In this document: positions 32,238-55,429 of the stretch, in pieces
Layout of the letters: each line of letters starts with the position of its first letter
Numbering within the stretch: position 1 is the stretch's first letter
Source of the DNA: Clostridiales bacterium PH28_bin88
GTDB lineage: Bacteria; Bacillota; PH28-bin88
Direction: 5' to 3'
Length of the DNA: 64,000 bases
Assembly: GCA_000987045.1 (NCBI GenBank)
Contig: LAKY01000049.1
Location: 37,735-101,734 of the forward strand
Notes under the pieces: model-generated
Seen by the model: the letters and a program-made list of their open reading frames with translations, nothing else
What the model was told of the DNA's origin: nothing
The model's database searches: none
Made by a program: the position numbers and the translations under genes

Positions 32238-32539
32238 GCCAGGGACCTCCTATTTGTACAGGCCTTTTGGGACATGTTTATGCGCCGGAGAGAGCAGTTA
32301 TGCTCTATTTCCAATTTTTAGGGGTGATAAAAAGTTCAGCAGGCAGGGATTGGTTTCCTGCCTGCTGCTTAAGTTTATTAACCAAACATCTGTTCCCGTT
32401 TTTTATTGTAGCCCGTAGCATATTATGGTAAGATGTAGGCAAGGCTTGCAGGTGCCCCGCAGTATAATGACAGCAACAAATAGCTCCTCCTCTCATCCCG
32501 TGGGTTGGCTGAGGGACAGGTAACGAGAGGAGGAAGCCT

Positions 32540-32638
32540 ATGGTAGAAGTGACGATTACAGTCAAAGTCGTTGCGTTGGCGATCGTAGTAGTACCTATGA
32601 TCACCGTCATCGCAGTAATGCGTCGTTACAAAAGATAA
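32540..32638 (+). CDS. 32-aa hydrophobic peptide with basic tail (candidate type-I toxin, locus L1)
   Basis: GAGAGGAGG-N6-ATG; MVEVTITVKVVALAIVVVPMITVIAVMRRYKR. An upstream CTCCTCCTCTC (32484-32494) can pair with the SD. Confidence 0.5.
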   Translation: MVEVTITVKVVALAIVVVPMITVIAVMRRYKR

Positions 32639-32728
32639 CGGGTATCGCGACATACCCGTCTAAGTAAAAAAAACACTCAAATAAACCTGCACCTCAGCCA
32701 ACCCTTTTCAGGGCCGGCATCCGGCTCT
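32628..32728 (-). ncRNA. Candidate cis-antisense small RNA (antitoxin-like) of L1
   Basis: Minus-strand promoter TTGACG-17-TAAAAT (32758-32763 / 32735-32740). Hairpin ACGGGTAT-N6-ATACCCGT (32638-32659) followed by TATCTTTTGT. It overlaps the 3-prime end and UTR of the peptide mRNA. Confidence 0.4.
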
Positions 32729-32741
32729 GTTTTTATTTTAC
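32711..32741 (+). terminator. Terminator of the L1 peptide mRNA
   Basis: GGCCGG-cat-CCGGC stem followed by TGTTTTTATTTT. Confidence 0.55.
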
Positions 32742-32983
32742 CCTTATTATTCCTCTTCGTCAATATTCCAAAACTCCGGCTGGACGCATATACACTCACA
32801 ATCTATGCGTGTCTTATAACGTGCCGAACTTTTGTTCGCTTTCATCTTGTCCACGATTGCGTACTATAGTAAAATAAAGGCAGGGCCTGCAGGTGCCCCG
32901 CAGCATAGCTACATCAAAAGAAAAACCCTCCTCTCTATCATGGGTTGGCTGAGTGAACAGCAGGTAACGAGAGGAGGGGGCGG

Positions 32984-33078
32984 ATGATCGAAGTAACCAT
33001 CACCGTTAAACTGGTTGCGCTGTAGTCATAGTACCTATGATTGCCGTTGTCAGAACCGTTAATCGCAAAAAGAAGTAG
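32984..33078 (+). pseudogene. Disrupted paralogue of the L1 peptide (locus L2)
   Basis: MIEVTITVKLVAL, then TAG. The -1 frame continues VVIVPMIAVVRTVNRKKK, consistent with a 1-nt deletion relative to L1. Confidence 0.5.
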
Positions 33079-33174
33079 CGGGTATGTTGCCGTATGCATA
33101 CCCGCCAAACCCAAGATAATACCCTAAAATAAACCTGCACCTCAGCCAACCCCTTATGGATCAGCTTTAGTGTC
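33066..33174 (-). ncRNA. Candidate cis-antisense small RNA of L2
   Basis: Promoter TTGACG-17-TACAAT (33204-33209 / 33181-33186). Hairpin GCGGGTATG...CATACCCGC (33078-33104) followed by TACTTCTTTTTG. The stem changes relative to L1 are compensatory. Confidence 0.4.
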
Positions 33175-33228
33175 ATTATTATTGTAACCATATTATTCCC
33201 ATTCGTCAACCAGATCAACAAATATGGC

Positions 33229-44444: not shown

Positions 44445-46154
44445 TCAGGTGACAGGCTGCTCCAGGTCGTAGGCCTTCAGTTTCAGGTACAGGGTGGAGA
44501 GGGAGATGTCCAGCGCCCTGGCAGCGGCCCGTTTGCCCCGCACCGTCCAGCCGTATTTTTTCATGGCCCGCTCGATCATCAACCTCTCCGTCTGCTTTAA
44601 TGAAAGCACCTGGTCATCCCTGTCCTCCCCCACGTCGGGCAGTTCCAGGTGGGCGGTCACCCACCAGGCGGTGATGGATCCCTCGCCTACCAGCAGCACC
44701 GCCCGTTCCAGGAAGTTTTCCAGTTCCCGCACGTTGCCCGGCCAGGGGTAGCGCCGCAGGATCTCCATCGCCTCCGGCTCCACGCCGCGGACCAACTTGC
44801 CGAGCTTCCGGTTCATCTGCCGGATGAAGTGGTCGGCCAAGAGGGGCAGGTCGTCTTTCCTCTCCCTGAGGGGCGGGATTTCCAGCTTCAAGACATTCAG
44901 GCGGTAGTACAGGTCCTTCCGGAAGGTCCCTTCCTCTACCATCTTCTCCAGGTTCCGGTTGGTGGCGGCAATGATGCGCACATCCGCCCGGATGGTCTCG
45001 TTGCCCCCCACCCGTTCGAACTCCCGCTCCTGCAGCACCCTGAGCAGCTTGGCCTGCAGGTAGGGCGACATGTCCCCGATCTCGTCGAGGAAGATGGTCC
45101 CCTCGTGGGCCAGCTCGAACTTGCCCACCTTGGTGCGGGTGGCCCCGGTAAAGGCGCCTTTTTCATAGCCAAAGAGTTCGCTCTCCAGGAGGTTCTCGGG
45201 GATGGCGGCGCAGTTGATCTTGACAAAGGGCCGTTCCCGCCGCTGGCTGGCGTGGTGGATGGCCTGGGCCAGCACCTCCTTGCCGGTGCCGCTCTCCCCC
45301 AGCAGTAAAACAGTGGAGTTGGACTCGGCGGCGGATTCCGCCAGGGATAACAACGCCACCAGGGAAGGGCTGCATCCGATAATGTCCTGGAAGGTGTAGC
45401 GGGTACTGGTGAACCGGTCCAGTTCCTCGTGCAGGTGACGGATGAGTTCGGTGCGCTGCTCCAGTTCCCGGGTCAGGCGCCGCAGTTCGGTGATGTCGTT
45501 GAAGATGACCACCGCTCCTTCCATCTTCCCATCCACCATGATGGGGGCGGCGTTGGAGATCACTTCGATGTCCGTCCCTGTGACGGAGTTGCGCCACCGC
45601 CGCACCATCCGGCCGGTGCGCAGCACCTGGGCCAGCGCCCCCCGGGGGGAGACGTCGTACACGCTTTTCCCGATGCGCTGCTCCGCCGGGATGCCGGTGA
45701 TCTCGGTGAAGGCGGGGTTGACGTACTTTACCAGCCCGTTTTTGTCGGCGACCTGGATCCCCTCCTGGGCCGAGTTGAGGATGGTGCTAAGTTCCTCCTG
45801 GATCTCCTTGATGTGCAGCAGCCGCTCCCGGTCCTCGATGAGGGTCATCATCAGGTTGGCGGCCTCGGCCTCCATGACGGTAACGGTGGGCGGCGCCGCC
45901 TCCCGGATGGCCTGCTGCACTTCCGGACTGCCGGTGGCCTCGATCAGGACGTTCAGCCCCGGGATACTGAGGATGTCCCTGAAGCCGGCGGAGTAGAAGA
46001 TGCCCAGTTCCCGGGCCAGGGCCACCCCTGGCGCCTCCGGGTTGATGTCAGCCGCCCCCACCACCTGGATACGCTCTACGCCCTTCAAGTTTTTCAGGAT
46101 GGAGGTGCCGCCCTTGCCCAGACCCACAATGCCGGCTTTGATGGTGCGGGACAC
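44445..46154 (-). CDS. Sigma-54-dependent transcriptional activator (N-terminal Rossmann-like domain, PAS, AAA+, Fis-type HTH)
   Basis: [14 protein letters not shown]-terminus and a PAS region. AAA+ motifs GESGTGKE and the GAFTGA loop (EKGAFTGA). C-terminal [20 protein letters not shown]. Confidence 0.9.
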
Positions 46155-46233
46155 ATCATTTCCTCCTCACGTTTCCGATTTTCATAAATGTTTTTCGACA
46201 CCAACCCCCAAACCCCTGCAGGAACATTTACGG

Positions 46234-53019: not shown

Positions 53020-53336
53020 GCGCTGTCACCCCACCGTCCCAGGCCCAGTTGGGTCTCGATGACCATGCCGCCGCGCACCGGGGTGACGCAGGTCCGCACG
53101 TTGGGAACCCCGTCCACCGTCATCATGCAGTCGGTGCAGCGGCCGATACCGCAAAAGACACCCCTGGGTTCTCCTTTTTTGTGAGTGCGGCGGAACACCC
53201 GGATGCCCGCCGCCATTAACGCGGCGGCAATGGGCTCTCCCTCGTAGGCCTCGACAGGACGCCGGTCAACGGTAATGGTTACTCTGGTCCGTTCTGCAGG
53301 TAGTGCGCCCAATACTGGATGGTCTGTTACCCGCAC
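53016..53336 (-). CDS. (2Fe-2S)-binding small subunit (HcnA / sarcosine-oxidase-alpha N-terminal type)
   Basis: GTG start at 53336, 10 nt after AAAGGAGG. Motif GVFCGIGRCTDCMMTVDGVPNVRTC. The track extension to 53756 has non-coding character. Confidence 0.75.
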   Translation of the reverse strand: MRVTDHPVLGALPAERTRVTITVDRRPVEAYEGEPIAAALMAAGIRVFRRTHKKGEPRGVFCGIGRCTDCMMTVDGVPNVRTCVTPVRGGMVIETQLGLGRWGDSA

Positions 53337-53407
53337 GACAAGTGCGCCTCCTTTTAGCGTGTTGAGCAGTATAATTTGCTTTGTTACGACAAGCGTGTAT
53401 TTCTTAT

Positions 53408-53423
53408 TGCAAGATCCGTTCCA
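53408..53423 (-). promoter_or_regulatory. Sigma-54 (-24/-12) promoter
   Basis: The minus strand reads TGGAACGGATCTTGCA, against the consensus TGGCACG-N4-TTGCA. GG and GC have the exact spacing. It lies about 72 nt upstream of the GTG at 53336. Confidence 0.7.
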
Positions 53424-53542
53424 CGGCCTGCTGAGAGGGCAAATAAAAATACCAGGGCCCCTGGGAGCCTGGTATGACTGGCTCGGCCTGGTTGGCGGCA
53501 ATTGCCGGCCCAGTCCTCTCCGGTTGTTCCCGGTCGGCCTAT

Positions 53543-53557
53543 TTCCGATTTTCGGAA
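53543..53557. promoter_or_regulatory. Palindromic candidate enhancer (UAS) site 1
   Basis: TTCCGA-ttt-TCGGAA perfect inverted repeat, about 125 nt upstream of the sigma-54 promoter. Confidence 0.5.
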
Positions 53558-53599
53558 CTATCCGGGTACCCACCCCACTATACCACGCGACTGTTATCA

Positions 53600-53614
53600 T
53601 TCCGATAATCGGAA
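53600..53614. promoter_or_regulatory. Palindromic candidate enhancer (UAS) site 2
   Basis: TTCCGA-taa-TCGGAA. A third partial site, GATTATCGGAA, is at about 53624-53634. Confidence 0.5.
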
Positions 53615-53735
53615 ATATATTATGATTATCGGAAAAGGGCATCAGGGGGTACCCCCTCAACAACCCACACGGATCAAGAAAAAATAATCTGCAAAATGGG
53701 ATTGAAAGCTGAAGGAAAAAGGTTATAATATAAGC

Positions 53736-53861
53736 AAAGGGAAGGTGGTTACACACCCTCCCCGGCTTTGGGCAATGCGGCCCGGAGCACCAAACTCCAT
53801 TTGTGGTCTATTTACTGCGGGAAGAAGGACGTTTTGAGCGGAACGTCCTTCTTCTTTTTTT
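53736..53861 (+). ncRNA. Candidate about 125-nt small RNA (antitoxin-like, locus L3)
   Basis: TTGAAA-16-TATAAT at 53702-53729. Strong terminator GAAGAAGGACGTT-N8-AACGTCCTTCTTC plus T7 at 53821-53861. No convincing ORF. It overlaps the 3-prime 54 nt of the minus-strand small ORF. Confidence 0.45.
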
Positions 53862-53942
53862 CGCCCCGTTTCCGGAACGCCGGATCAAAGCCACAATAAC
53901 CTGGAAAACCCCAGTAATTATCGCGGCAGCGATTTGCGTCAT
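53808..53942 (-). CDS. 44-aa hydrophobic peptide with a highly basic tail (candidate type-I toxin, locus L3)
   Basis: GGAGG-N9-ATG at 53942; MTQIAAAIITGVFQVIVALIRRSGNGAKKRRRTFRSKRPSSRSK. An upstream CTTCCTCCTCTCTCCC (plus-strand coordinates 54011-54026) can sequester the SD. Promoter TGGTCA-17-TATAAT at 54076-54081 / 54053-54058. Confidence 0.4.
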   Translation of the reverse strand: MTQIAAAIITGVFQVIVALIRRSGNGAKKRRRTFRSKRPSSRSK

Positions 53943-54140
53943 AGGCCACCACCTCCTCTCCCCACAACTCCGAAGTACCGCCATACTCCGGGCTGCGCAC
54001 TGCCCCACGCGGGAGAGAGGAGGAAGCCGGAGGAAACATATTCCTAAAAAGCATTATAACCTATCCTTAAGATGGTGACCAGAGTAAAAATTGAAACACG
54101 CTTATAGGGCGGCTTGAAAGGCATCGTTTCCTGAACGGGC

Positions 54141-54175
54141 TAAAAACACGAATGCCGCGGTTTTTTGCCGCGGCG
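54141..54175 (-). terminator. Probable terminator of the saccharopine-dehydrogenase-like gene
   Basis: The minus strand reads GCCGCGGC-aaaaaa-CCGCGGC followed by ATTCGTGTTTTT. Confidence 0.55.
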
Positions 54176-54316
54176 CCCGTGCCCTTAGGTTAATTGCTTT
54201 GGTTAAAAGCAATCATACTACTAGTTCTACCCCTCGGCCGAATCTCCTGCCTGTCCACAGTGGTAATTTCTTATTATCTTGGGAAGACGCAGGGGCAAAT
54301 GACGACGTGGAAGAGG

Positions 54317-55429
54317 TTACTTAAGCCCCTGGGTACAGTGCACGTTGATGTTCCGTTCGGCCAGGGCGGCGATAAAGGCGTCAGGATCCACCGCCCCGGG
54401 AGCCTCGGGGGCGAAGACTCCCGCCCGCCGGATCTGGCCCCGGCCCAGCATCAGCGCGCCGATGGCCAGGGGCACCCCGGTAAGATTGTTCATGTGGTCA
54501 GCGGCCTGGTAAACCAGGTGCTGTGATTGGCCGGCCCGCTCGCCCTTGATATCCACCCGGATGCCCGAAATGGGCACACCCGGTTTGCCGACTTTCTCCA
54601 GGGCCGGCAGGATGGTCTTGATTATCTTGCCGACCACCTGTTTCTTGCGGCGGGTGTTGGTCAGCCGGAGGCGGGCGATGGCCACTGCCAGGCTGTTCAA
54701 GAACTCTTCCGTAAGCCCGCCCTTCAGGGTGACTGTTTTGACTCCGGGAATATAGCGGGGAAGGGTGACCGGTTCGGGGTGGCCCAGGTGAAACATGGAT
54801 ACCCGGCCCAGGGGCTCGATAAACTCCACCCGCTCCTTGCCGCTGCCCGCCGCTACCCGCACCTGCCGGCCGCCAGTAAAGCTGGGGACCTGCCCGGTAA
54901 AGATGTGGATGGTGTGCAGGACCACCGCAAATCCGGTGGAATCGGCGGAGGCTCCGGCCCAGTAGATATTGATCTCGTCCACCCGGTCCAACTGGTCTGC
55001 TCCTTTGCGGGCCAGCACGTTGCTAAGACCGGGCGTCCACCCCATGCCGGTCAGTACCTTGACCCCCAGTTCCCCGGCCCGCCCGTCCAGCGGCAGGATG
55101 CTTTCCACCGCGTCGTAGTCGTCGCAGATGCTGGTGTAGTTGACCCGGGCCTCCAAAGCGGCCTCCACCATCACCTTTTCGTACCTGTAAAAGGGACCGA
55201 TGGCGCCGGCGGCCACATCGTGACCGCGCATCGCCTCCACCAGGGTGCGGGGTTGGTTGGCATCCACCTGAACTACCTTGACCTTCTCCCCCGACTCCGA
55301 GGCAAGCTTCCTGGCGGCGGCTAGGTTAAGGTCGGCGATGGTCAACTCCGTCACTTCCGGCTGGCGCGCCAGGTCCCGCACCGCCCGGCTGCCCATGTCC
55401 CCCGCCCCGCCCAGTACCACGACTTTCAT
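54317..55429 (-). CDS. Saccharopine dehydrogenase family NAD(P)-binding enzyme
   Basis: MKVVVLGGAGDMGSRAVRDLARQPEV N-terminal Rossmann fold. The 370-aa length and C-terminal domain pattern fit the Sacchrp_dh family. Confidence 0.7.
   Translation of the reverse strand: MKVVVLGGAGDMGSRAVRDLARQPEVTELTIADLNLAAARKLASESGEKVKVVQVDANQPRTLVEAMRGHDVAAGAIGPFYRYEKVMVEAALEARVNYTSICDDYDAVESILPLDGRAGELGVKVLTGMGWTPGLSNVLARKGADQLDRVDEINIYWAGASADSTGFAVVLHTIHIFTGQVPSFTGGRQVRVAAGSGKERVEFIEPLGRVSMFHLGHPEPVTLPRYIPGVKTVTLKGGLTEEFLNSLAVAIARLRLTNTRRKKQVVGKIIKTILPALEKVGKPGVPISGIRVDIKGERAGQSQHLVYQAADHMNNLTGVPLAIGALMLGRGQIRRAGVFAPEAPGAVDPDAFIAALAERNINVHCTQGLK

What the first reader, a model, noticed from the sequence alone, without database searches (positions are those of the whole stretch)
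53702..54081. Third type-I TA-like locus: convergent small RNA and small hydrophobic ORF in the 0.9-kb gap upstream of the sigma-54 operon
On the plus strand, a near-consensus promoter (TTGAAA-16-TATAAT) is followed about 125 nt later by a very strong terminator (13-bp stem plus T7), with no credible ORF. On the minus strand, a TGGTCA-17-TATAAT promoter gives a 5-prime UTR of about 100 nt. In that UTR, CTTCCTCCTCTCTCCC can pair with the SD GGGGAGAGGAGG, followed by a 44-aa ORF with a TM helix and an Arg/Lys-rich tail. The two transcripts overlap by about 54 nt at their 3-prime ends, the geometry of Bacillus txpA/RatA and bsrG/SR4. There is a caveat. The basic tail of the ORF is encoded by the complement of the terminator hairpin, so it could be a by-product. 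The sRNA alone may be the functional unit.
Basis: partly seen in the sequence, partly recalled or inferred. Interest (0 to 1): 0.7.

Follow-up and report, generated by a model that had tools for sequence, protein, structure and literature searches.

The report
New type I toxin-antitoxin-like cassette
This 0.4-kb gap holds a self-contained cassette, found in at least six other places in anaerobic Clostridia, that encodes a small membrane peptide and an antisense RNA covering the end of its mRNA; it is built like the Bacillus bsrG/SR4 toxin-antitoxin system but has no detectable sequence relationship to any described family.

Summary
One number needs correcting. The minus-strand mRNA must read past the shared hairpin to its stop codon. 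It then has its own terminator at 53763-53738, so the plus-strand RNA (about 127 nt) is probably overlapped completely, not over 54 nt only.

The cassette is conserved. A phmmer search and a profile search found six related peptides, one from the isolate Desulfotruncus arcticus. Their loci share a block of about 390 bp bounded by the two convergent promoters, in unrelated genomic contexts.

The ORF is intact in all 8 distinct loci. Indels inside it are in frame or compensated, and median pN/pS is 0.46. The RNA terminator shows compensatory changes. In every member the Shine-Dalgarno sequence (SD) is predicted to pair with an upstream pyrimidine tract. RNAalifold also predicts a 19-bp helix between the 5'UTR and the 3'UTR, inside the RNA's target region, as in the probed bsrG mRNA.

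Rfam, Pfam, NCBIfam and PDB give no significant match.

Verdict: a real, unannotated type I toxin-antitoxin-like family. It is a new member of a known kind. Toxicity and transcription are untested.

The parts
54053..54081 (-). Promoter of the peptide (toxin) mRNA: TGGTCA-17-TATAAT
   Evidence: 10 of 12 matches. The same position in relatives carries TTGAC[AG]-17-TATAAT, and conservation starts just upstream of it.
53725..54046 (-). Predicted toxin mRNA, about 320 nt. Both ends are inferred from the promoter and the terminator, not mapped.
   Evidence: Fold z-score -7.3. Aligned with 6 relatives in A3.
54031..54045 (-). 5'-terminal hairpin AGGAA-N5-UUCCU
   Evidence: Present in the MFE fold of all 7 members and in the RNAalifold consensus (100% of cells paired).
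54011..54030 (-). Anti-SD pyrimidine tract (CCGGCUUCCUCCUCUCUCCC)
   Evidence: Pairs with the SD in the MFE fold of every member, for the full mRNA and for the isolated 5'UTR. Of 12 pairs, 8 vary only by C<->U opposite an invariant G, and 98.8% of cells are paired.
53985..54006 (-). 5'UTR block A (GGGGCAGUGCGCAGCCCGGAGU), the most conserved stretch of the cassette
   Evidence: Read by eye from the printed sequences and visible in the alignment: a 27-nt stretch containing it is identical in W, L001 and L003. RNAalifold pairs it with block A'.
53952..53963 (-). Shine-Dalgarno region GGGGAGAGGAGG, 9 nt before the ATG
   Evidence: GGGAGAGGAGG is invariant in all loci.
53808..53942 (-). 44-aa ORF: hydrophobic helix (residues about 2-22), RR, then a basic tail
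   Evidence: AlphaFold2 predicts a helix over residues 2-31, with pLDDT 87-90 for residues 1-20 and a low-confidence tail.
53770..53788 (-). 3'UTR block A', complementary to block A; on the plus strand the same bases are hairpin H2 of the small RNA
   Evidence: inverted repeat I6. 19 pairs. Pair 58:278 occurs as GC, GU and AU; pair 51:283 as GU, GC and AU.
53725..53763 (-). Terminator of the toxin mRNA: hairpin GGGGAGGGUG...CACCUUCCCU plus a U-rich tail
   Evidence: Conserved, with G-U pairs on this strand that become A.C mismatches on the other strand.
53702..53729 (+). Promoter of the antisense RNA: TTGAAA-16-TATAAT
   Evidence: 11 of 12 matches. Conserved in 7 of 8 loci, and conservation ends just beyond its -35 box.
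53736..53862 (+). Antisense small RNA (putative antitoxin), about 127 nt: H1 53739-53762, H2 53765-53788, variable linker 53789-53818, terminator H3 53819-53856 plus T7
   Evidence: H3 has compensatory AU<->GC changes at two pairs. H2 has G-U pairs on this strand. No Rfam match.

Best explanation
This is a chromosomal type I toxin-antitoxin cassette of the Gram-positive kind in which the two transcripts overlap at their 3' ends.

The minus strand makes an mRNA of about 320 nt for a 44-aa single-helix membrane peptide. Translation of that mRNA is held off in cis, because an upstream pyrimidine tract pairs with the strong SD.

The plus strand makes an RNA of about 127 nt from a near-consensus promoter. 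That RNA is fully complementary to the last 17 codons and the 3'UTR of the mRNA.

Inferred steps, by analogy with bsrG/SR4 and txpA/RatA:
1. The two RNAs pair, probably starting from loop-loop contacts at the terminator or at H2.
2. Pairing creates a long duplex that RNase III cuts, removing the toxin mRNA.
3. Pairing also occupies 3'UTR block A', which can otherwise form a 19-bp helix with block A in the 5'UTR. In a nested model that helix excludes the anti-SD:SD pairing and mostly exposes the SD.
4. With the RNA bound, block A can only fold locally, so the SD stays sequestered.

What is shown: the sequence features, their conservation as a unit, coding-type constraint on the ORF, and predicted structures with limited covariation. 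What is inferred: transcription, toxicity, RNase III cleavage and the conformational switch.
For: Family and cassette boundaries:
- phmmer against 1.84 billion proteins gave 2 hits (E 7e-5 and 1.4e-4).
- A profile search gave 6 clusters (E 1e-19 to 1e-23), including a 'hypothetical protein' of Desulfotruncus arcticus.
- The DNA alignment of 8 distinct loci shows conservation that starts at one promoter and ends at the other. The flanks are unrelated: cas genes, PemK/transposases, ABC ATPases, an RNase J-like gene.

Coding signal:
- The ORF is intact in all 8 loci.
- Variable sites by codon position are 10/7/14.
- Median pN/pS is 0.46, against 0.64 and 1.18 in the other two frames.
- ORF indels are a whole codon (+3 in L001) or +1/+2 compensated within 21 nt (window). 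UTR indels are of 1-4 nt.
- Replacements in the helix are hydrophobic-conservative, and G11, F13, Q14 and R21-R22 are invariant.
- The peptide is predicted as a helix.

RNA signal:
- The terminator has two compensatory pairs.
- Anti-SD:SD is paired in the MFE fold of all 7 mRNAs, and stays paired when the 3' 125 nt are masked.
- 97.8% of cells are paired, against 54-61% when partners are slid.
- RNAalifold itself proposes the 5'-3' helix.

Analogy: in bsrG mRNA, nt 1-35 pair with nt 232-262, right next to the terminator. SR4 binding frees the 5' strand and extends the SD helix from 4 to 8 bp (PMC3834814).

Accessory location: relatives with 89-91% AtpD identity have atpC next to spoIIT and murA. 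They lack the 21 kb that carries this locus.
Against: - There are no expression, toxicity or RNase data of any kind.
- Only 7 distinct mRNA sequences from a few lineages are available, so covariation is thin: 3 pairs with double changes. In the shuffle control, 74 of 500 shuffles reach that count.
- pN/pS of 0.46 is only moderate, and some pairs are near 1.
- Forcing the 5'-3' helix costs 7-13 kcal/mol relative to the MFE in every member. It may be a minor state, or it may coexist with anti-SD:SD as a pseudoknot. Its role is then unclear.
- The D. arcticus copy has 3 mismatches in that helix.
- L003 keeps block A although it has lost A'.
- No homology to any validated toxin was found.
Confidence: 0.7

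Rival explanations
1. The cassette is a small membrane protein gene with a cis-antisense regulator, but not a toxin-antitoxin pair. The peptide would have a physiological role, for example a modulator of a membrane complex or a stress-induced small protein, and the antisense RNA would simply tune its level.
For: All the comparative evidence shows only that a small hydrophobic peptide and an antisense RNA are conserved together. Nothing tests toxicity. The tail is acidic/basic mixed in relatives (KKEEGRSAKRPSSRRK), not a uniform cationic tail.
Against: The cassette sits in a different, often accessory or defence-type neighbourhood in each genome, and it is missing from the syntenic site of close relatives. 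That is typical of TA modules and unusual for a housekeeping small protein. The SD occlusion (12-17 bp) and the strong constitutive-looking antisense promoter are the standard safeguards of type I toxins (PMC8594479).
Confidence: 0.18
2. The ORF is not translated. The functional unit is the plus-strand small RNA, or the RNA pair, and the ORF persists only because its sequence is constrained by RNA structure.
For: The last 17 codons are the complement of the RNA's terminator and linker, so they are constrained anyway. The ORF body also forms predicted hairpins. In L003 the tail frame is lost.
Against: Codons 1-26 lie outside the small RNA. They still show third-position-biased change, in-frame indels only, an invariant strong SD at 8-9 nt and a conserved ATG in 8 of 8 loci. 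The window copy restores the frame after a +1 indel with a +2 indel.
Confidence: 0.07
3. The arrangement is a chance juxtaposition of promoter-like and terminator-like motifs in an AT-richer intergenic gap.
For: Consensus scans alone are weak evidence, as itself warns.
Against: The same arrangement of about 390 bp is conserved in 7 other distinct loci in unrelated contexts. Fold z-scores are -5 and -7.3.
Confidence: 0.01

Closest known systems
bsrG/SR4 (Bacillus subtilis SPbeta; also bsrE/SR5, bsrH/SR?)
   Same: The toxin mRNA and the antitoxin RNA are convergent. The antitoxin is complementary to the 3' part of the mRNA, including the end of the ORF (123 nt there, about 125 nt here). The mRNA is compact, with a long helix between its 5' part and a 3' segment directly next to the terminator. 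The SD lies in a double-stranded region. In bsrG, binding at the 3' end refolds the 5' end and tightens SD occlusion, in addition to RNase III-dependent decay (PMC3834814).
   Different: The peptide has no detectable similarity to BsrG (no Pfam or NCBIfam hit). Here the SD is occluded by a 12-17 bp upstream anti-SD even without the RNA (4 bp in bsrG). The RNA here is entirely complementary, whereas SR4 has a non-complementary SL1. The host is an anaerobic Clostridia MAG, not a Bacillus prophage.
txpA/RatA (B. subtilis skin element)
   Same: Convergent 3' overlap. A small single-helix membrane toxin. An antitoxin that triggers RNase III cleavage (my own knowledge; T1TAdb lists it with the 3'-overlapping Gram-positive families, PMC8594479).
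   Different: There is no sequence match of either the RNA (Rfam) or the peptide.
Fst/RNAII (par of pAD1) and the Fst/Ldr superfamily
   Same: A peptide of about 33-44 aa with an N-terminal transmembrane helix and a charged, disordered tail. Convergent transcripts with a shared terminator hairpin. Intramolecular occlusion of translation initiation.
   Different: One of 7 members hits NF033608 at E = 0.2. Neither is significant. In par the interaction uses dispersed direct repeats at the 5' ends, outside the overlap (PMC8594479). Here the complementarity is the contiguous overlap.
hok/Sok and aapA1/IsoA1
   Same: A 5'-3' long-distance interaction in the toxin mRNA, and SD sequestration by an anti-SD (PMC8594479).
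   Different: In those systems the antisense RNA targets the 5' region and the mRNA is activated by 3' trimming. Here the antisense RNA covers the 3' partner of the long-distance helix. The toxins are unrelated.
Clostridioides difficile type I TA modules next to CRISPR arrays (Maikova et al. 2018, cited in PMC8594479)
   Same: Class Clostridia. Convergent toxin and antitoxin transcripts. One family member (D. arcticus, L005) lies directly upstream of a cas6...cas2 operon.
   Different: No sequence comparison with the C. difficile toxins was possible here. TRF found no CRISPR array in the 19 kb held. The other members are not next to cas genes.

Membership tests
Type I toxin-antitoxin systems (class) | Small (<60 aa) hydrophobic peptide with one predicted transmembrane helix | tested here: met
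   44 aa. Residues 4-20 have a mean Kyte-Doolittle value of about 2.6 (calculated by hand from the sequence). AF2 predicts a helix over residues 2-31, with pLDDT 87-90 over residues 1-20. Conserved in 7 homologues.
Type I toxin-antitoxin systems (class) | Cis-encoded antisense RNA with its own promoter and terminator, base-pairing with the toxin mRNA | tested here: met
   At sequence level only. The promoter TTGAAA-16-TATAAT and the hairpin+T7 terminator are conserved in 7 of 8 loci, with compensatory changes in the terminator. Transcription was not observed.
Type I toxin-antitoxin systems (class) | Cis elements that prevent premature translation (SD sequestration) | tested here: met
   The SD is paired to the upstream pyrimidine tract in the MFE fold of all 7 mRNAs and of the isolated 5'UTRs. 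Substitutions in the tract keep pairing.
Type I toxin-antitoxin systems (class) | Peptide is toxic on overexpression, and the RNA neutralises it | not testable with these tools
   Needs expression experiments.
BsrG/SR4 (BsrE-G-H) family | Toxin homologous to BsrG/BsrE/BsrH; antitoxin homologous to SR4/SR5 | tested here: not met
   No Pfam, NCBIfam or Rfam match even at E <= 10.
BsrG/SR4 (BsrE-G-H) family | Architecture: antisense RNA overlapping the 3' end, 5'-3' helix P1 next to the terminator, SD in a helix | tested here: met
   compared with PMC3834814. On this side the structure is predicted, not probed.
Fst/RNAII (par) family | Match to the Fst toxin model (NF033608 / Pfam Fst_toxin) | tested here: not met
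   1 of 7 members at E = 0.2, below any cut-off. Pfam gives none. hhalign probability 2.3%. No match in the sequence-profile search of all PDB chains, which should include any solved Fst structure.
TxpA/RatA family | RatA RNA or TxpA peptide homology | tested here: not met
   Rfam at gathering and at E <= 10 gives no RatA hit. No protein family hit.
Hok/Sok family | Hok peptide homology; Sok antisense RNA at the 5' leader (mok) | tested here: not met
   No Pfam or Rfam hit. The antisense RNA here is on the 3' side.

The most novel reading that the evidence does not exclude
The cassette may be the founding example of a type I TA family of uncultured and anaerobic Clostridia in which the antitoxin works as a strand-exchange mimic. 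Hairpin H2 of the RNA has nearly the same sequence as 5'UTR block A. The RNA and the mRNA's own 5'UTR would then compete for one 3'UTR partner (A'), and the outcome of that competition would decide whether the SD is exposed or locked. A second, unrelated-looking small-ORF locus in the same window (32.4-33.2 kb) shows the same 5'UTR/3'UTR complementarity. This may therefore be a general design rule for 3'-overlapping type I systems, of which bsrG helix P1 is the only probed case.
Probability: 0.3. Interest if true: 0.55.

Novelty: new member of a known kind. Interest (0 to 1): 0.42.

Why it matters
Type I TA modules are almost never annotated and are known mainly from a few model Firmicutes and Proteobacteria. 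T1TAdb lists 24 families (PMC8594479).

This finding adds a family with comparative support for both genes. It occurs in Desulfallaceae and in relatives of Moorella and Zhaonella, including one culturable isolate (D. arcticus DSM 17038) in which it could be tested.

If the peptide is toxic, it would be a compact counter-selection or containment tool for genetically difficult anaerobes.

The conserved 5'-3' helix gives a second, independent system in which to test the action-at-a-distance translation control so far shown only for bsrG/SR4.

It does not change the general picture of how such systems work.

Tried and rejected
- **Rfam:** the whole window at gathering score and the gap at E <= 10 gave only chance-level hits to terminator-like hairpins.
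- **Protein libraries:** Pfam, NCBIfam and PDB with the peptide and with all 7 members gave nothing significant. The resemblance to Fst that I recalled (VIAPIF versus VIAGIF) did not hold up.
- **Word-indexed protein search** with the single peptide found nothing. Only the exhaustive phmmer search opened the family.
- **Paralogues in the window:** none by blastn or tblastn.
- **Genome-contig scan** with the 20-mer of block A returned one Erythrobacter contig (L004). About one chance match is expected for a 20-mer (my estimate); I did not inspect the locus.
- **Metagenome contigs and viral-contig scans** with GGGAGAGGAGG-N36-52-TTTTCCAGGT returned 30 and 4 hits, none of them family members. Several hits are coding sequence containing ...SVFQVH....
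- **blastn against plasmids and phages:** no match.
- **Exact look-ups** of the neighbouring saccharopine dehydrogenase-like protein and of AtpC: not on record.
- **Idea that the L014 copy interrupts an ABC ATPase gene:** rejected. The upstream ATPase ORF ends naturally and the cassette is intergenic.
- **Idea that the RNA also targets the 5'UTR/SD in trans** through its CCCUCCCC arm: whole-length duplex energies are not better than shuffles in most members (z from -0.2 to -3.1), so this is unsupported.
- **Second 5'-3' helix** (CCGGCUU:AAGCCGG, 54024-54030 with 53762-53768): perfect in the window and compensated in D. arcticus (G-C to A-U). It is mismatched at one position in 4 of 7 members, by my reading of A3, so it is not claimed.
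- **CRISPR array next to the D. arcticus copy:** none found by TRF in the 19 kb held.

Full report
**1. What is in the sequence**

The gap lies between a saccharopine dehydrogenase-like gene (54317-55429, minus strand) and a Fer2_4 / flavoprotein operon (from about 53330 downward, minus strand). It divides into three parts:
- 54086-54316 holds the terminator of the upstream gene (54174-54154).
- 53300-53690 holds a sigma-54-type promoter (TGGAACGGATCTTGC, 53409-53423, minus) and upstream palindromes.
- 53702-54081 is the finding.

- On the plus strand, TTGAAA-16-TATAAT (53702-53729) is followed by a 13-bp perfect hairpin with T7 (53819-53862). This predicts an RNA of about 127 nt.
- On the minus strand, TGGTCA-17-TATAAT (54081-54053) is followed by a leader of about 104 nt. 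In that leader, CCUCCUCUCUCCC (54011-54023) is complementary to the SD GGGGAGAGGAGG (53952-53963).
- A 44-aa ORF follows (ATG 53942, stop 53808-53810).

Both predicted RNAs fold far better than shuffles: z = -5.0 and z = -7.3. The MFE fold of the mRNA contains the anti-SD:SD helix.

One correction is needed. On the minus strand the shared hairpin has no U-tract, and the stop codon lies beyond it. A second hairpin (53763-53738) with a U-rich tail (53737-53725) is flagged as terminator-like, and it is the complement of the 5' hairpin of the plus RNA. The mRNA therefore most likely covers the whole small RNA, about 125 nt, not 54 nt.

**2. It is a conserved cassette**

The word-indexed protein search found nothing. 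An exhaustive phmmer search found two relatives. A profile of these found six clusters at E 1e-19 to 1e-23. All are 43-44 aa except one of 59 aa. One is a 'hypothetical protein' of the isolate Desulfotruncus arcticus. The rest come from MAGs and metagenome assemblies.

I fetched their contigs and aligned the DNA. Eight distinct loci share about 390 bp. Similarity begins at or just upstream of the toxin promoter (TTGAC[AG]-17-TATAAT in the relatives). It ends just beyond the -35 box of the antisense promoter (TTGAAA or TTGCAA, 16 nt, TATAAT).

The flanks are unrelated in each case:
- a cas6...cas2 operon in D. arcticus;
- PemK genes, NFACT fragments and transposases in L008;
- two ABC ATPase genes in L014;
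- a SEC-C protein and an RNase J-like gene in L003.

The window comes from 'Clostridiales bacterium PH28_bin88' (AtpD 100% identical). Relatives with 89-91% AtpD identity have atpC directly next to spoIIT and murA. The 21 kb that carries this locus is therefore accessory. Nothing similar was found in plasmid, phage or viral collections.

**3. The ORF behaves as coding sequence**

- It is intact, with an invariant SD (GGGAGAGGAGG) 8-9 nt upstream, in all 8 loci.
- In codons 1-26, which lie outside the small RNA, variable sites by codon position are 10/7/14. Median pairwise pN/pS is 0.46, against 0.64 and 1.18 in the two other frames.
- Replacements in the helix are I/V/A/L/M/F exchanges. G11, F13, Q14, V15, I16, A18, R21 and R22 are invariant.
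- Indels in the ORF are a whole codon (L001) or a +1/+2 pair within 21 nt that restores the frame (window). UTR indels are of 1-4 nt.
- AlphaFold2 gives one helix (residues 2-31) with high confidence over residues 1-20, and a low-confidence tail.

The tail is doubly constrained. Its nucleotides are the complement of the RNA terminator, and they change in a compensatory way. Relatives read KKEEGRSAKRPSSRRK where the window reads KKRRRTFRSKRPSSRSK, and both rejoin at KRPSSR.K. In L003 a -1 change in the A-run is not compensated and the tail differs (59 aa). That locus has also replaced the 3' third of the cassette. By my reading of the sequence, it still carries an antisense promoter (ATGACA-17-TATAAT).

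**4. RNA structures**

*Small RNA (A2).* It has a 5' hairpin H1, hairpin H2 (GCUUUGGGC...GCCCGGAGC, with G-U pairs that exist only on this strand), a variable unpaired linker, and terminator H3. H3 has compensatory AU<->GC changes at two pairs.

*mRNA (A3).* It has:
- a 5'-terminal hairpin;
- anti-SD:SD, paired in the MFE fold of all seven members, for the full mRNA and for the isolated leader; of 12 pairs, 8 vary only by C<->U opposite an invariant G, and 98.8% of cells are paired;
- H3;
- a terminator whose G-U pairs exist only on the mRNA strand.

Over the whole named structure, 97.8% of cells are paired, against 54-61% for slid controls. The covariation score exceeds 498 of 500 shuffles. 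Only 3 pairs show double changes, however, and 74 of 500 shuffles reach that count. With seven related sequences this is supportive, not conclusive.

**5. A 5'-3' helix inside the antitoxin target**

The most conserved stretch of the cassette is not coding. It is a 5'UTR block (53985-54006). By eye, in the printed sequences, a 27-nt stretch containing it is identical in three loci whose peptides are only 53-56% identical to the window peptide.

The block is complementary to a 3'UTR block (53770-53788), which on the other strand is H2 of the small RNA. RNAalifold on the full mRNA alignment proposes this 19-bp helix with a 2-nt bulge by itself. One pair occurs as GC, GU and AU; another as GU, GC and AU. 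The D. arcticus copy has three mismatches.

In a nested model the helix is incompatible with anti-SD:SD. Forcing it costs 7-13 kcal/mol and leaves the SD mostly unpaired. Masking the 3' 125 nt, as the bound RNA would, leaves anti-SD:SD as the fold. 5'UTR versus 3'UTR duplex energies have z from -1.9 to -3.6.

This matches what was shown by probing for bsrG mRNA. There, nt 1-35 pair with nt 232-262, one nucleotide from the terminator. SR4 binding to the 3' region releases the 5' strand and extends the helix occluding the SD from 4 to 8 bp, in addition to promoting decay (PMC3834814).

I therefore take the bsrG-type dual action as the most likely mechanism. I mark it as inference. The helix could instead be a stabilising lock, or it could coexist with anti-SD:SD as a pseudoknot.

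**6. Comparison with known families**

No Rfam family matches either strand. No Pfam, NCBIfam or PDB entry matches the peptides. The only hint is one member at E = 0.2 to the Fst model, and an hhalign probability of 2.3%.

By geometry the cassette belongs with the Gram-positive families in which the antisense RNA lies on the 3' side and overlaps the ORF: TxpA/RatA, BsrE-G-H, YonT, SprG/SprF (PMC8594479). It is not a demonstrable member of any of them. No paper in the library links type I TA systems with Desulfotomaculum.

**7. Verdict**

The locus is a new family of a well-known kind of system. It has good comparative support for both genes, and an mRNA architecture that parallels the best-studied Bacillus example.

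What is missing is any evidence of expression or toxicity. Interest is moderate. It is useful for annotation, as a testable second case of 3'-to-5' communication in a toxin mRNA, and as a possible genetic tool. It is not surprising to a specialist.

Noticed in passing
window 32420-33220 (+ strand ORFs; antisense promoters on the - strand at 32763-32735 and 33209-33181): Two tandem copies of another small-ORF/antisense locus lie between spoIID and murA. Copy 1 encodes a 32-aa hydrophobic peptide (32540-32638, MVEVTITVKVVALAIVVVPMITVIAVMRRYKR) behind SD GAGAGGAGG, with an upstream CUCCUCCUCUC anti-SD. Copy 2 (about 32984-33080) has an in-frame stop. Each has a convergent promoter (TTGACG-17-TAAAAT / TACAAT). 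Each also has a 3' block (AAACCTGCACCTCAGCCAACCC, 32683-32706 and 33131-33154) complementary to its own 5'UTR (GGGTTGGCTGAGGGACAGGT). This is the same 5'-3' design as the locus studied here. The leader motifs CCUCCUCUC..CCGUGGG and GAGAGGAGG..GCCUAUG resemble those of the 53.9-kb locus.
   Followed up: partly
window 53409-53423 (-) and 53543-53634: A sigma-54-type promoter, TGGAACGGATCTTGC, lies upstream of the Fer2_4/flavoprotein operon. Upstream of it are two perfect TTCCGA-N3-TCGGAA palindromes (53543-53557, 53600-53614) and a degenerate third (53620-53634), probably enhancer-binding sites. A PAS/sigma-54 activator gene lies at 44445-46154, and a related half-palindrome sits at 46173-46187. 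The antisense-RNA promoter of the cassette abuts these sites.
   Followed up: partly
window about 34512-55789: The roughly 21 kb between murA and atpC is absent from the closest relatives. It holds the sigma-54 operon, an aldehyde:ferredoxin oxidoreductase, an SSF transporter, ABC-type genes and this cassette. In L049-L052 atpC is followed directly by spoIIT and murA, so this looks like an accessory island in a conserved sporulation/ATP synthase neighbourhood. In Zhaonella the murA-spoIID gap instead holds a HEPN/nucleotidyltransferase pair.
   Followed up: partly
L005 627-9270 (Desulfotruncus arcticus FOOX01000008.1): The D. arcticus copy of the cassette lies about 180 bp upstream of a cas6-cas8-cas7-cas5-cas3-cas4-cas1-cas2 operon. 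This recalls the type I TA modules next to CRISPR arrays in C. difficile. TRF found no array in the 19 kb held.
   Followed up: partly
L003 1380-1500: This variant copy has an uncompensated -1 frameshift in the A-run, giving a 59-aa product. The 3' third of the cassette (H1, H2, toxin terminator) has been replaced by unrelated AT-rich sequence. That sequence still carries an antisense promoter-like ATGACA-17-TATAAT. 5'UTR block A is retained unchanged.
   Followed up: partly
L001, L003, L006, L008 and L014, 30-45 nt upstream of the toxin -35 box: A conserved AT-rich element (CGCCTTAAATTCTTAAATTTCTCTAGCAC) lies upstream of the toxin promoter in relatives. It is missing from the window copy, whose -35 box is also degraded (TGGTCA instead of TTGACA). 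It may be an UP element or an operator, and the window copy may have a weakened toxin promoter.
   Followed up: no
L008 4383-4628 and 10385-10955: The P0004 copy sits among PemK-family toxin genes, IS91/IS66 transposase fragments and broken NFACT genes. This looks like a TA/mobile-element island.
   Followed up: no
window 53738-53763 and 53952-53963 (-): The toxin terminator hairpin is itself an SD-like/anti-SD-like pair. Its 5' arm GGGGAGGGUG resembles the SD, and its 3' arm ACCACCUUCCCU is 11/12 complementary to the real SD (inverted repeat I5). The mRNA thus has two purine and two pyrimidine tracts that could swap partners. I could not tell whether this matters.
   Followed up: partly
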